Shown here: in pieces, positions 3,505-52,904 of the stretch
How the letters are laid out: each line of letters opens with the position of its first letter
How positions within the stretch are numbered: the first letter of the stretch is position 1
Origin: Promethearchaeota archaeon
Lineage (GTDB): Archaea; Asgardarchaeota; Lokiarchaeia; Sigyniarchaeales; SOKP01
DNA: 63,137 nt
NCBI GenBank assembly: GCA_019894975.1
Contig: JAGXNO010000019.1
Span: 1 to 63,137 of the forward strand
Direction: 5' to 3'
Position numbers and translations under genes: made by a program
The notes under the pieces: model-generated
Seen by the model: only the letters and a program-made list of their open reading frames with translations
What the model was told of the DNA's origin: nothing
Databases searched by the model: none

Positions 3505-4635
3505 GTGATGCTATTTATGTCTAATACGAACCAGTATGAAGAATTAATCGAGCATTATAGAAATTGGATTTTTGGATTACCTGATTCTGAATTCCTTATA
3601 CCTATGCTAAAGGCAAGATTCACTCCAGAAGAAGCTCAAATAATTGCACAAATACCATTTATTGGGAATACAGTTGAGAAACTCTCGCAAAAGATTGGAA
3701 TCCCCTCAAAGGAACTTACTGAAAAACTTGAATATTTCGCGGAAAAGGGGATAGTATTCAAGAACGAAAGGAATGGTGTAAAATTCTATTCCCTTTGTGA
3801 TTCAGATTTCGTTTTTTATCGATCTACAGGATGGAGAAAAGAACTAGATGACTGGAGTTATAAGATGGCAAATCCTCAAAATAAATATTGGATACATGCG
3901 TATGCTAATACATTTAATGGTCATGAAACTCAAGGTTTACGTGCTATTCCCATTAATATAACTATTGATGACCCTCGAAAAGTTATGCCTTATGAAGATA
4001 TTCTGAAAATTATAGAAAATTTTGAATATTATGCCGTATCTATGTGTCCTTGTGCGGCTAAATATAATGTAGATTCTGAATTTCACGAATGTAATCACAA
4101 TTTCGAAAGATGTTTACACTTTGATGATCTTGGGAGATACACTGTAGAATATGGGTTAGGTAGAGAAATAACAAAAGAAGAAACCTTGGAAATATTAAAA
4201 AGAGCTGATGATGAGGGATTAGTTCATGGAGTTTCCAATTCTGAAGAAGGAATAGATACAATATGCAATTGTTGTTCATGTTGTTGTGTATTTTTGGATT
4301 CTCTTGTAAAGATGCCAGGAATTATACCAAGGGGTCATCAGCCCTCGAATTATATTAGAGCAATTAATGAAGAAAACTGTATTAGCTGTGGAGTATGTGT
4401 TAAAACTTGTCCTATGAAGGCTCTTGAACTTGTGGATAAGAAGCTAGTGTTTGATCGGGAACGATGTTTGGGATGCGGTGTTTGTGTCAATAAATGTAAA
4501 CAAAAAGCAATATATCTAGAACATCGAGAAGGAAAACAAAATTTCCCTAAAGATGGAGGAGAACTGGTTATGAGACTCCTTATTGAAAGAGGACTCGATC
4601 CCAATGAAGCTTTTAGAAAGAATTTTATTATGTAA
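3505..4635 (+). CDS. 4Fe-4S dicluster protein with CNCCSCCC motif (tandem paralog of preceding gene)
   Basis: CPC, ICNCCSCCC, CISCGVCVKTCP, CLGCGVCVNKC; start probably ATG 3517. Confidence 0.85.
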   Translation: MMLFMSNTNQYEELIEHYRNWIFGLPDSEFLIPMLKARFTPEEAQIIAQIPFIGNTVEKLSQKIGIPSKELTEKLEYFAEKGIVFKNERNGVKFYSLCDSDFVFYRSTGWRKELDDWSYKMANPQNKYWIHAYANTFNGHETQGLRAIPINITIDDPRKVMPYEDILKIIENFEYYAVSMCPCAAKYNVDSEFHECNHNFERCLHFDDLGRYTVEYGLGREITKEETLEILKRADDEGLVHGVSNSEEGIDTICNCCSCCCVFLDSLVKMPGIIPRGHQPSNYIRAINEENCISCGVCVKTCPMKALELVDKKLVFDRERCLGCGVCVNKCKQKAIYLEHREGKQNFPKDGGELVMRLLIERGLDPNEAFRKNFIM

Positions 4636-41378: not shown

Positions 41379-41710
41379 TGACAAATTGAGCTGTTGAGCT
41401 GACGGTGGGCATGACCCGCTGAGGAACCTCACCTCACCCTCCAAGCAAGGTGTAGATAACTACTACGATGAAAATCGTAATCTGATGGCAGAAACGACAC
41501 TGCCTTCTCACGTAGATTAATGACTTGGATATAAGCCAGAGAAATTGTGAGAAGGAATGGTTGAAACGAGTCAGACCCTTGGTGCAAGGCCAAATGAAAG
41601 CGTTAAAGCACTTGGAGCTAGCTTTAGGTAGGCCGCTTAGTTTGATGCTCAATCCTATTTTTGGCGACGAAAATAGCAGACAGAAAGGTGGGTACAAGCT
41701 CAAGTTGTCA
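41379..41710 (+). ncRNA. rnpB: RNase P RNA (archaeal)
   Basis: GC-enriched island; P1 TGACAA.TTGAGCT / AGCTCAA.TTGTCA; CR-I GAGGAACCTCACCT pairs with CR-V ACAGAAAGGTGGG (P4); GCAGAAACG, TGAAACG, GCAAGGCCAAAT, GTAGGCCGCT conserved segments. Confidence 0.9.
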
Positions 41711-50999: not shown

Positions 51000-52193
51000 A
51001 TGGATGAGGATGATTTTAGAAAACAATTCAACAAAAAATCAGTCTTTAAACAACTGGGTTCGCTTGATAAAAGCTGGGTTCCAGAGAAATTATATTGCCG
51101 AGATGATGCTCTTCATACTTTAATAGTAAATTATAGAAGAATTTTGGAGGAAGAAGAGCAACCTTCTATAAATTGCCTAATTTTAGGTAAGGGTGGTGTT
51201 GGTAAGACTTGTACTGCTCGTTATTTTGGTAAAAACTTTAGAACAGTTGCTATAGAAAAAGACGTAAAATTATTCGTTGAATACTTTGATTGCATTAACT
51301 TTCGCTCTAAAAGCAAGATTATTAGAGAGCTCCTCGCCAAATATACACATGGAAGTGGTAGAGGTTATTCGGACGATGAAGCATTAAAGTTAATTCTTAC
51401 TAAGCTAATTAGAGATAACGGTTATATGTTATTAATTATCGATGAAGTACATTTATTAAAACCAGATGAAGTATTGGCGTTTTTAAATATTGCCGAGACG
51501 TTCGGTCATCAAAATGCAAAACTTTCTATTCTAATGGTGTGTAGGGGAACAGATTGGATGAAAATCGAAAACGAGAGAATCTTAAGTCGTTTAAATGAAA
51601 AAATCCAATTTAAACCATATAATTTCGAAGAATCTATGAAAATACTAGAATATAGAAGCGAAATTGCGTTAAAAGAATATGTGATAGATGATGAACTTCT
51701 AAACATGGTAGCTCAGATTGTAGTTGAAAATAAAAATATGAGACATGGAATAGAAATCACAAGAAAAGGCGGACTATATTGCGATAGAGAAGGTTTAGAA
51801 CAGATTTCTGCTGATATTATCAGAGAAGCTTCAGATGATGTATACCCCACTTTTAGGGCAGAGATCATTGATGATTTAAAAGATCAGGAACTATTAGCAT
51901 TACACGGAATTGTAAGAACCCTAATAAATAATGGTACTCCCTTTGCATTGGTGGATGATGCATATGAAGAATATCAATCTATCTGTGAAGGTTATTCAAT
52001 AGAACCTCATGTAAAGATGAGTTTTAGAAAATATGTTCGACAATTAAGCAACCTTAAAATTATTGCTTCCAAAACGGTAAGGATAGAAGATGCTACACGG
52101 GGTAGGCACTTAGAAATAACATTGTTAGACATCCCCGCAACAAAATTAGCTGAATTATTAGAAAGCATTTTTGAAAGAATGTTTTCTCGATAA
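51000..52193 (+). CDS. cdc6: Orc1/Cdc6 replication initiator
   Basis: WVPEKLYCRD, Walker A GKGGVGKT, Walker B IIDEVH, FKPY, C-terminal winged helix. Confidence 0.93.
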   Translation: MDEDDFRKQFNKKSVFKQLGSLDKSWVPEKLYCRDDALHTLIVNYRRILEEEEQPSINCLILGKGGVGKTCTARYFGKNFRTVAIEKDVKLFVEYFDCINFRSKSKIIRELLAKYTHGSGRGYSDDEALKLILTKLIRDNGYMLLIIDEVHLLKPDEVLAFLNIAETFGHQNAKLSILMVCRGTDWMKIENERILSRLNEKIQFKPYNFEESMKILEYRSEIALKEYVIDDELLNMVAQIVVENKNMRHGIEITRKGGLYCDREGLEQISADIIREASDDVYPTFRAEIIDDLKDQELLALHGIVRTLINNGTPFALVDDAYEEYQSICEGYSIEPHVKMSFRKYVRQLSNLKIIASKTVRIEDATRGRHLEITLLDIPATKLAELLESIFERMFSR

Positions 52194-52287: not shown

Positions 52288-52550
52288 CTAATAATCTTTT
52301 TCTTTAGATTCTTTCGAGGATGAATACCAATCTAGCCATTCCTTGCGCCGACTCTTTTTTTGTTGCGACTCATCTGCAGCAGTGGCATTTTCATTTCTTA
52401 CTTTTTTCCAATCTCTGTCAAGTTCATGCCGTGTTAAGGATAAACCACATGATTGGCAAACCATTTGTTTAATAGCTGATTGGTATTTCATGAACCCACC
52501 GCATTTCAGGTATACTTTCAGGTAAGCGTACTTTCTGGGCAACGGGCCAT
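52288..52550 (-). CDS. Zn-ribbon protein, two exons (52550-52533, 52503-52288)
   Basis: Spliced product MARCPECGGFMKYQSAIKQMVCQSCG... restores an ATG start and a complete CxxC...CxxC; the ORF-track TTG version has only one N-terminal Cys. Confidence 0.85.
52504..52532 (-). other. 29-nt BHB-type intron in mRNA
   Basis: Exon helix AUGGCCCGUUGC/GCGGUGGGUUCAU; central CCAG/CUGA (3 bp + C.A); bulges AA|A and AA|U; intron stem GUA/UAC + GCUU/AAGU. Confidence 0.82.
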
Positions 52551-52904
52551 TTATCTACCAACTACTTTTTTATTTTTCATGATCTCTTAACGTAATAGAA
52601 TTATCCAAAATTAAAATAATTATTGGATTCAAAAAATAACTCAAAACCAAAATTGTTGATCCAATAAATTCTAATATAGTTGATTTTCTATCCATATTCG
52701 TTTTATTCTCACCTTCCAATAAAAATAAAAAAATTAGGCAATTTTGTTAAAAACAAGTTTCTAACGAGTTTGTAAAATTTCTAGAAGGTCAACACCATCT
52801 TATAAACACCTATAAGCAATAAGTTTAGAATCTCTAAACATGATGAAAAATGTATTTAGTAAAATTGTTTATTAACACCTGTATATTTTTTTCTTTTCAT
52901 AATC

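What the first reader, a model, noticed from the sequence alone, without database searches (positions are those of the whole stretch)
52490..52550. Second BHB intron (29 nt) splits the first CxxC of a Zn-ribbon gene next to cdc6
Seen on the minus strand: ATG GCC CGT TGC CCA GAA [AGTACGCTTACCTGAAAGTATACCTGAAA] TGC GGT GGG TTC ATG. The unspliced frame hits TGA after 10 codons. Removal gives MARCPECGGF, which completes the Zn ribbon with the downstream CQSC. Structure: a long exon-exon helix including the start codon (AUGGCCCGUUGC with GCGGUGGGUUCAU), central helix CCAG/CUGA with one C.A mismatch, 3-nt bulges AA|A and AA|U, and an intron stem (GUA/UAC, GCUU/AAGU). Gene callers hide it by picking a false TTG start.
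Basis: partly seen in the sequence, partly recalled or inferred. Interest (0 to 1): 0.9.

Follow-up and report, generated by a model that had tools for sequence, protein, structure and literature searches.

The report
Mini-intron splitting an Asgard zinc-ribbon gene

Summary

- **The gene.** On the minus strand, a 6-codon exon (52550-52533) is followed by 29 nt (52532-52504) that shift the frame into a TGA. Exon 2 runs 52503-52288.
- **Homologs.** Intronless relatives start MARCPECGGFMKYQ, exactly the predicted spliced product.
- **Other alleles.** Eleven further alleles from other metagenomes carry 20-31 nt inserts at the same codon 6/7 junction. None is a multiple of 3 in length, and their inner sequences differ.
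- **Structure.** All twelve keep the exon helix, central helix, two 3-nt bulges and intron stem. Two alleles are canonical, with a 4-bp central helix. The intron stem shows compensatory changes.
- **Selection.** Exon 1 varies only at synonymous sites. Exon 2 has dN/dS about 0.06.
- **Machinery.** The genome encodes two EndA paralogs and RtcB.

This is a new member of the pre-mRNA bulge-helix-bulge intron kind, known from crenarchaeal cbf5. The scan had already flagged similar introns on other DNA of this same genome: dnaG (followed up), and purA, uL11 and JAMM, which I partly re-checked.

The parts
52533..52550 (-). Exon 1: the start codon plus five codons (M-A-R-C-P-E). It ends inside the first, invariant CPEC zinc knuckle.
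   Evidence: In the 12 intron-bearing alleles only 4 sites vary, and all are synonymous third positions. C4, P5, E6 and C7 are invariant in the family alignment A2.
52504..52532 (-). 29-nt intron of the BHB (tRNA-splicing endonuclease) type. It shifts the frame, and the unspliced frame stops at TGA 52520-52518.
   Evidence: It is absent at exactly this junction in 19 distinct intronless alleles. The boundary can slide by 0-2 nt in this allele because of the repeated A's. It is unambiguous in alleles L036 and L037.
52288..52503 (-). Exon 2: 71 codons plus the stop. It starts with the second Cys of the first knuckle and holds the second knuckle, CQSC, and a long C-terminal helix.
   Evidence: dN/dS is about 0.06 among intron-bearing alleles. 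AF2 model of an intronless homolog (P0003): zinc ribbon followed by a helix at residues 31-75.
52539..52550 (-). Outer (exon-exon) helix h, 5' strand. It includes the AUG and pairs with 52490-52502.
   Evidence: MFE; helix 1 has 89.6% of cells paired across the 12 alleles; exon-exon duplex -9.9 kcal/mol on average in intron-bearing alleles, against -4.5 in intronless alleles.
52490..52502 (-). Outer (exon-exon) helix h, 3' strand, with one bulged U.
52535..52538 (-). Central helix H, exon strand (CCAG). The 5' bulge is 52534-52532 (AA|A), with the cut after 52533.
   Evidence: The third base of the Pro codon is A or G in all 12 intron-bearing alleles, so it always pairs with the U opposite. 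It is A, G, C or T in intronless alleles.
52506..52509 (-). Central helix H, intron strand (CUGA; 3 pairs plus a C.A mismatch). The 3' bulge is 52505-52503 (AA|U), with the cut after 52504.
   Evidence: In L036 and L037 this strand reads CUGG, which gives a perfect 4-bp helix.
52510..52531 (-). Intron helix h' (GUA/UAC plus GCUU/AAGU) with a 6-nt loop.
   Evidence: 6 of its 8 pairs show changes on both sides across the alleles.
51000..52193 (+). Neighbouring orc1/cdc6 gene, convergent with the zinc-ribbon gene. The pairing is conserved in relatives.
   Evidence: Cdc6_lid, Cdc6_C, AAA_22. The same neighbour is seen.

Best explanation
The 29 nt at 52532-52504(-) are an archaeal bulge-helix-bulge intron inside the coding sequence of a single-copy, roughly 77-aa zinc-ribbon protein gene of a Lokiarchaeon (Promethearchaeota).

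Proposed mechanism:
1. In the primary transcript, the first 12 nt of the ORF pair with nt 2-14 of exon 2 (helix h).
2. The last exon-1 bases, CCAG, pair with the intron's CUGA (central helix H).
3. The intron closes on itself (helix h').
4. Two 3-nt bulges are left on opposite strands.
5. The heteromeric splicing endonuclease (two EndA paralogs in this genome) cuts two nucleotides after each strand of the central helix.
6. RtcB joins the exons to give ...CCAGAA|UGCGG..., restoring the CPEC knuckle and the reading frame.

Without splicing, the ORF from the true start ends after 10 codons, and any product from the internal Met lacks half of the zinc site.

Shown here: the insert, its geometry, conservation and covariation of that geometry, exact agreement with intronless homologs, selection on both exons, and presence of the enzymes.

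Inferred: that cutting and ligation actually take place, and that EndA and RtcB are the enzymes responsible.
For: 1. Intronless homologs give exactly the predicted product (MARCPECGGFMKYQSAIKQMVCQSCG...).
2. Twelve distinct alleles from independent assemblies carry an insert at the same codon 6/7 junction. Lengths are 20, 25, 28, 29 and 31 nt, none divisible by 3.
3. The unconstrained MFE fold gives the BHB shape in the window and in 9 of the 12 alleles. L036 and L037 have a perfect 4-bp central helix with 3-nt bulges. In those two, the rule 'cut after the 2nd bulge base' yields the conserved CPEC without ambiguity.
4. On alignment A1, 83.5% of cells are paired, against 29-46% when the partners are slid. 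Six pairs changed on both sides, all in the intron stem, and 0 of 500 shuffles reached the observed covariation score.
5. Every variable site in exon 1 is synonymous and keeps its pair. The exon-exon duplex averages -9.9 kcal/mol in intron-bearing alleles and -4.5 in intronless ones (Mann-Whitney p = 7e-6). Five of 5 independent tree pairs go the same way.
6. Exon 2 has a median dN/dS of 0.064 among intron-bearing alleles. The gene and the intron are both single copy in the genome.
7. Two PF01974 EndA genes (C22, C55) and RtcB (C90) are present. Asgard (alpha-beta)2 EndA carries the L1 loop associated with broad substrate specificity (PMC5829648).
8. The insert is present in DNA contigs of a second, independent study (X4).
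9. Within one 5' haplotype (ATGGCT...), intron-bearing and intronless alleles differ by precisely the insert.
Against: There is no RNA evidence at all, so the spliced junction has not been seen.

In the window's own allele the central helix has only 3 of 4 pairs. The C.A mismatch next to the 3' bulge makes it a relaxed motif, not a canonical one.

The fold energy is not better than that of shuffled sequence (z = -1.0).

The exon helices are also constrained by coding, so compensatory changes are confined to the intron stem.

The link between intron presence and a strong exon helix may partly reflect a few linked 5' haplotypes exchanged by recombination. The sign test reaches only p = 0.06.

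After splicing, the exon helix could still sequester the AUG in a hairpin. The consequence of that is unknown.
Confidence: 0.88

Rival explanations
1. The insert is never removed. The functional protein starts at the internal Met (MKYQ..., 66 aa), and the upstream ATG, exon 1 and insert are only 5' leader, perhaps a regulatory hairpin.
For: Gene callers choose this start for several alleles (66-aa clusters). The ATG at codon 11 is conserved. The exon helix could be a leader structure.
Against: C4, P5, E6 and C7 are invariant across the family, and the zinc ribbon needs them. Exon 1 of intron-bearing alleles changes only at synonymous sites. The boundaries of the insert coincide exactly with intronless coding sequence. 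The two bulges are symmetric around a 4-bp helix.
Confidence: 0.06
2. The gene is a decaying pseudogene disrupted by a small insertion.
For: The frame is broken 6 codons into the gene. Other calls in databases look truncated.
Against: dN/dS is about 0.06 over exon 2 in 12 intron-bearing alleles, with dS saturated between many of them. The gene is single copy with no intact paralog. The insert persists at one site across deep divergence while its structure is kept.
Confidence: 0.02
3. The ribosome deals with the insert by recoding: translational bypassing, as in T4 gene 60, or programmed frameshifting.
For: There is a stop soon after the break, a hairpin inside the insert, and GAA both before the insert and near its end in the window's allele.
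Against: Landing on the 3' GAA would give the wrong frame. L036 and L037 have no matching landing codon. Insert lengths are 3n+1 in some alleles and 3n+2 in others, so different alleles would need opposite shifts. Translating the insert would put a variable 7-10 residues inside the invariant CxxC.
Confidence: 0.02
4. It is removed from RNA, but by something other than EndA and RtcB: an unknown nuclease or a self-cleaving element. Or it is a DNA-level mobile insertion.
For: Presence is patchy on the tree (8 changes on the ML tree, at least 5 forced by well-supported branches), which could suggest mobility.
Against: It is far too short for a group I or II intron, and there is no Rfam family hit in the window apart from RNase P. 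There are no other copies in the genome and no terminal repeats. The geometry is the one that defines EndA substrates.
Confidence: 0.02

Closest known systems
cbf5 pre-mRNA intron of Crenarchaeota (Watanabe 2002; Yoshinari 2006; Yokobori 2009, PMC2738675)
   Same: A BHB-type intron inside a protein-coding sequence, in archaea that have a hetero-oligomeric splicing endonuclease. Presence is lineage-specific, with precise loss in some lineages. It causes gene-prediction errors.
   Different: The gene is different (a small zinc-ribbon protein, not a pseudouridine synthase) and so is the phylum (Asgard/Promethearchaeota). The intron sits at codon 6/7, and the exon helix includes the start codon. 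It is very short and variable in length (20-31 nt). Presence and absence differ even between close relatives. Splicing is shown experimentally for cbf5 but not here.
Non-canonical tRNA introns of Asgard archaea (bioRxiv 10.64898/2026.10.13.758758; Marck & Grosjean 2003, as cited in that preprint)
   Same: The same hBHBh' architecture: four exon bases upstream of the 5' bulge pair with intron bases upstream of the 3' bulge. The size range is the same, the presumed enzymes are the same, and the preprint also reports repeated gains.
   Different: The host is an mRNA. The exon half of the motif is therefore built from codons and is maintained through synonymous-site choice rather than tRNA structure.
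BHB intron in the 5' UTR of Haloferax volcanii HVO_1309 (PMC7714728)
   Same: EndA substrate within an mRNA, lying close to the start of the gene.
   Different: That intron lies in the untranslated leader and does not interrupt the reading frame. Here splicing is needed to make the protein at all.
HAC1/XBP1 unconventional mRNA splicing in eukaryotes (from general knowledge; RtcB link cited in the references of PMC5829648)
   Same: A short intron is removed from an mRNA by a non-spliceosomal endonuclease and an RtcB-type ligase, changing the reading frame.
   Different: The endonuclease there is Ire1, which recognises twin stem-loops rather than a BHB. Regulation by stress is established there and is only speculation here.

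Membership tests
Archaeal BHB (splicing-endonuclease) intron | [quoted passage not shown] | tested here: met
   The window's allele has 3 of 4 pairs plus a C.A mismatch (relaxed form). Alleles L036 and L037 have 4 of 4 (canonical). All 12 alleles have at least 3 of 4, with bulges AAA and AAU or AUU.
Archaeal BHB (splicing-endonuclease) intron | Flanking helices h (exon) and h' (intron) of at least 2 contiguous pairs | tested here: met
   In the window, h runs 10 contiguous pairs from the junction in the scan's register; the MFE fold draws it as a 12-bp helix with one bulged U. h' is 3 pairs then 4. Across alleles, helix 1 has 89.6% of cells paired and helix 3 has 76%.
Archaeal BHB (splicing-endonuclease) intron | Cuts inside the two bulges give a functional mature sequence | tested here: met
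   Cutting after the second base of each bulge gives CCAGAA|UGC. That is identical to 19 distinct intronless alleles and restores the invariant CPEC.
Archaeal BHB (splicing-endonuclease) intron | Structure, not sequence, is conserved (compensatory changes) | tested here: met
   6 pairs and 17 cells changed on both sides, and 0 of 500 shuffles reached the observed score. Slid controls give 29-46% of cells paired, against 83.5% observed.
Archaeal BHB (splicing-endonuclease) intron | The host encodes the splicing endonuclease and an RNA ligase | tested here: met
   PF01974 occurs twice (C22 at 101 bits, C55 at 66 bits). RtcB (PF01139) scores 563 bits on C90.
Archaeal BHB (splicing-endonuclease) intron | Excision observed in RNA (spliced junction, circular intron, or in vitro cleavage) | not testable with these tools
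   No run on record as RNA holds the stretch. Only DNA contigs could be laid.
Group I / group II self-splicing intron | A ribozyme core of hundreds of nucleotides | tested here: not met
   The insert is 20-31 nt. Rfam finds only RNase P RNA in the window.
TFIIB-type zinc ribbon, PF08271 (the host protein) | A score above Pfam's gathering threshold (29 bits) | tested here: not met
   Intronless homologs score 13.9-27.6 bits. The family is a small uncharacterised C4 zinc ribbon with a long helix, and PDB matches are only generic.

The most novel reading that the evidence does not exclude
This intron may be one of many endonuclease-dependent introns in the protein-coding genes of this Lokiarchaeon. 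I saw frame-breaking, BHB-like inserts inside invariant motifs of purA, uL11 and a JAMM protein, and other notes list dnaG, eS30, rnhB, elf1 and a Rab-like GTPase. If so, some Asgard archaea would routinely splice mRNAs with the tRNA-splicing machinery. Introns would be gained, lost or exchanged between close relatives. Where the exon helix covers the start codon, as here, splicing could gate translation.
Probability: 0.3. Interest if true: 0.92.

Novelty: new member of a known kind. Interest (0 to 1): 0.74.

Why it matters
For more than twenty years cbf5 of Crenarchaeota has been the only archaeal coding sequence reported with a BHB intron. PMC7714728 said so in 2020, and my searches of the held library found nothing on Asgard mRNAs.

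A second, well-supported case would matter for three reasons:
- **Scope.** It lies in the closest prokaryotic relatives of eukaryotes, in a genome that seems to hold several more. mRNA interruption by endonuclease-type introns would then be neither a one-gene curiosity nor confined to Crenarchaeota.
- **Annotation.** Public gene calls for this family are truncated or chimeric wherever the intron is present. Asgard proteomes used in eukaryogenesis studies therefore contain systematic errors at such sites.
- **A natural experiment.** The set of 12 intron-bearing and 19 intronless alleles can be used to study how codon choice is recruited to build a splicing motif, and how such introns are gained and lost.

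Tried and rejected
- **RNA evidence.** No listed holder is on record as RNA. Laying four runs gave only DNA contigs and no joints.
- **Genome-wide count.** I scanned the 3.9-Mb genome for BHB geometries that restore an open, coding-like frame on both sides. The ORF filter was not specific enough: adjacent genes and chance open frames dominate. Observed counts barely exceeded local controls (for example 153 against about 120 for 4-bp central helices), so I draw no number from it.
- **Calibrating the cut rule on this genome's own tRNA introns.** ARAGORN's intron boundaries were too unreliable. I relied instead on the published definition and on the unambiguous alleles L036 and L037.
- **Marck & Grosjean 2003.** The paper could not be fetched.
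- **Function of the protein.** Pfam, NCBIfam, a PDB profile search, Atlas and Foldseek gave only generic, sub-threshold zinc-ribbon matches.
- **Alternative 3' splice site.** Another note (e1-5590278) proposed an internal CCUGAAAG repeat as an alternative site. The BHB cut rule there removes 16 nt, which is out of frame. An in-frame variant would put 4 residues inside the invariant CxxC. No outer helix can form at that site, and the repeat is absent from the other 11 alleles. Rejected.
- **Bypassing, frameshifting, pseudogene, mobile element.** See the rival explanations.
- **A strong BHB-like hit at 3775/3806(+).** It is a 30-nt, in-frame stretch with no stop, so it gives no evidence of an intron.

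Full report
**What is there.**
The minus strand reads an ATG at 52550 and five further codons (M-A-R-C-P-E, to 52533). Then come 29 nt (52532-52504), and then TGC GGT GGG TTC ATG... from 52503 to a stop at 52288-52290. Read straight through, the frame from the ATG ends at a TGA after 10 codons. The ORF listing instead offers a TTG ORF of 84 aa in the exon-2 frame. Removing the 29 nt gives M-A-R-C-P-E-C-G-G-F-M-K-Y-Q..., that is a CPEC knuckle 14 residues upstream of CQSC.

**Organism and setting.**
The gene lies convergent to an orc1/cdc6 gene (51000-52193), and the window holds an archaeal RNase P RNA. Related proteins and loci are all from Asgard archaea: Promethearchaeota/Lokiarchaeia, with more distant relatives labelled Heimdall-, Hod- and Hermodarchaeota. 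The cdc6 neighbour is conserved in relatives.

**Homologs decide the reading.**
Exon 2 alone retrieves 62 protein clusters.
- Full-length members of 75-77 aa start MARCPECGGFMKYQSAIKQMVCQSCG..., identical to the predicted spliced product.
- Other clusters are 66 aa and start at MKYQ.
- Others are 88-90 aa with an odd N-terminus (MVDKWPVAQKV...). That is the neighbouring frame reading through a 28-nt insert into the exon-2 frame.

I fetched DNA for 50 loci, of which 42 plus the window matched the junction pattern.
- 19 distinct alleles have no insert and read ...CCNGAA TGY GGN... without interruption.
- 12 distinct alleles, counting the window, have an insert at exactly this junction. Lengths are 20, 25, 28 (five alleles), 29 (four) and 31 nt.
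- No length is a multiple of three, so none can be a translated insertion.
- The insert is also present in DNA contigs of a second, independent study. It is not an assembly artefact.

**Structure.**
RNAfold gives the described bulge-helix-bulge shape as the unconstrained minimum for the window and for 9 of the 12 alleles.

The layout matches the published definition quoted in bioRxiv 10.64898/2026.10.13.758758. Four exon bases upstream of the 5' bulge (CCAG) pair with four intron bases upstream of the 3' bulge. Exon helix h and intron helix h' flank them, and there is a cut in each 3-nt bulge.
- In the window the intron strand is CUGA, giving three pairs and a C.A mismatch. This is a relaxed form.
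- In L036 (20 nt) and L037 (25 nt) it is CUGG, giving a perfect 4-bp helix with bulges AAA and AUU.
- In those two alleles, cutting after the second base of each bulge gives the conserved CPEC with no positional ambiguity. In the window the boundary can slide by up to 2 nt because of the repeated A's.

On the 12-allele alignment A1, 83.5% of cells are paired, against 29-46% when partners are slid by 1-3 columns. Six pairs, all in the intron stem, changed on both sides. None of 500 shuffles reached the observed covariation score.

As a background rate, 5.4e-4 of all position pairs in the window satisfy loose BHB criteria, and 1.8e-5 do so with an outer helix of 8 bp or more.

**Selection on the exons.**
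- In the 12 intron-bearing alleles, exon 1 varies at four sites. All are synonymous third positions, and every variant keeps its base pair (C/U opposite G, A/G opposite U).
- The Pro codon's third base, which lies in the central helix, is A or G in intron-bearing alleles. It is A, G, C or T in intronless ones.
- The exon-exon duplex averages -9.9 kcal/mol (range -7.9 to -13.8) with the intron and -4.5 (range -2.5 to -9.2) without it, Mann-Whitney p = 7e-6.
- On the tree, five of five independent pairs go the same way. With five pairs, p = 0.06 is the best a sign test can reach.
- Exon 2 has a median dN/dS of 0.064 among intron-bearing alleles.
- The four Cys, P5 and E6 are invariant in the family.
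- An AlphaFold model of an intronless homolog, P0003 (pLDDT 74), shows a zinc ribbon followed by one long helix.
- The gene and the intron are each single copy in the 3.9-Mb genome.

**Machinery.**
The genome has two PF01974 splicing-endonuclease genes, with open frames of 209 and 206 aa on C22 and C55. This fits the (alpha-beta)2 type that PMC5829648 reports for Asgard archaea, which carries the L1 loop linked to broad substrate range. RtcB is also present.

**Distribution.**
On a tree of about 590 nt starting at exon 2, the intron needs 8 changes of state on the best tree, and at least 5 across well-supported branches. For example, the intronless L029 is sister (97) to L036.

Part of this may be allelic recombination of the 5' module. 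Intron-bearing ATGGCC alleles and intronless ATGGCA alleles also differ in their upstream sequence. Within the ATGGCT haplotype, however, intron-bearing alleles (L012, L038, L048, L049) and intronless ones (L008-L011, L014, L015...) share the upstream sequence and differ by precisely the insert. That is what a precise loss or gain at the splice boundaries would leave.

**What is not shown.**
No run on record as RNA holds this organism, so the spliced junction has not been observed. The mechanism (EndA cut, RtcB ligation) is inferred from geometry, comparative data and gene content.

**Comparison with known cases.**
The closest precedent is the cbf5 pre-mRNA intron of Crenarchaeota (PMC2738675). 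PMC7714728 (2020) states that this is the only coding-sequence case, and adds a BHB intron in the 5' UTR of HVO_1309. Eight full-text searches found no report of BHB introns in Asgard protein-coding genes. The library lacks most subscription journals, so this is not proof of absence.

I file this as a new member of a known kind. Its particular features are the phylum, the position at codon 6/7 with the start codon inside the exon helix, the very small and variable size, and the presence/absence polymorphism among close relatives.

**Context in this genome.**
The scan had already noted similar candidates on other pieces of the same genome, one of them (dnaG) followed up by another agent. I partly re-checked three.
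- **purA** (62901-62932): the spliced frame gives ...[16 protein letters not shown].
- **uL11** (C44): the two halves of the conserved motif lie 38 nt apart in different frames, and the MFE fold is BHB-like.
- **JAMM protein** (C120): the two halves lie 37 nt apart in different frames, again with a BHB-like fold.

My own attempt at a genome-wide count was not specific enough to give a number.

Noticed in passing
window 62901-62932 (+): purA carries a 32-nt insert near its start. Removing it gives [24 protein letters not shown], which restores the P-loop-like GDEGKGK motif. Unspliced, the frame stops inside the insert, and the MFE fold is BHB-like. This looks like a second mRNA intron in the window (first-reader note e1-5590275).
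   Followed up: partly
own genome, C44:47143-47232 (+) and C120:71334-71407 (+): In uL11, GGSASGGPP and GPAVGPTG lie 38 nt apart. In a JAMM protein, HSHPGF and MMSHID lie 37 nt apart. In both cases the two halves are in different frames and the junction folds BHB-like. These are further candidate mRNA introns.
   Followed up: partly
public protein clusters P0002, P0004, P0008 (88-90 aa) and P0006, P0009, P0015, P0016 (66-67 aa): Database gene calls for intron-bearing alleles are wrong. They are either truncated at the internal Met or chimeric, with another frame reading through a 28-nt intron. Not every 66-aa call hides an intron: P0035 (L042, L043) is an intronless gene with a missed GTG start (see the next item).
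   Followed up: yes
L040 and L041, around 370-400; L042 and L043, around 360-400: Two intronless relatives lack an ATG at the family's start. One reads ATC-GCT-AGA-TGC (I-A-R-C-P-E-C). The other starts at GTG (M-K-K-I-P-R-C-P-E-C). Callers therefore picked the internal Met. These may be non-AUG starts.
   Followed up: no
window 52526-52533, run X4: In the independent permafrost metagenome, two contigs end and begin inside the intron, overlapping by only 8 nt. This may reflect strain heterogeneity at the intron in that sample.
   Followed up: no
whole genome (G000): ARAGORN finds only 29 tRNA genes in a 3.9-Mb genome that is 95% complete, about half of them with called introns. This fits the heavily interrupted tRNA genes reported for Asgard archaea, and many tRNA genes are probably missed.
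   Followed up: no
window 41383-41706 (+): Archaeal RNase P RNA (RF00373, 132 bits).
   Followed up: no
window 3776-3805 (+): Strong BHB-like geometry (outer helix 10 bp, inner 6 bp) around a 30-nt segment that is in frame and has no stop. There is no evidence that it is an intron. It may simply be a hairpin within a coding region.
   Followed up: partly
window 52555-52559 (-), and the same place in relatives: A GGTAG / GGTAA / GGTAT motif lies 4-6 nt upstream of the exon-1 ATG in intron-bearing alleles and in the related intronless ATGGCT alleles. It may be a Shine-Dalgarno-like element, which would support this ATG as the true start.
   Followed up: no
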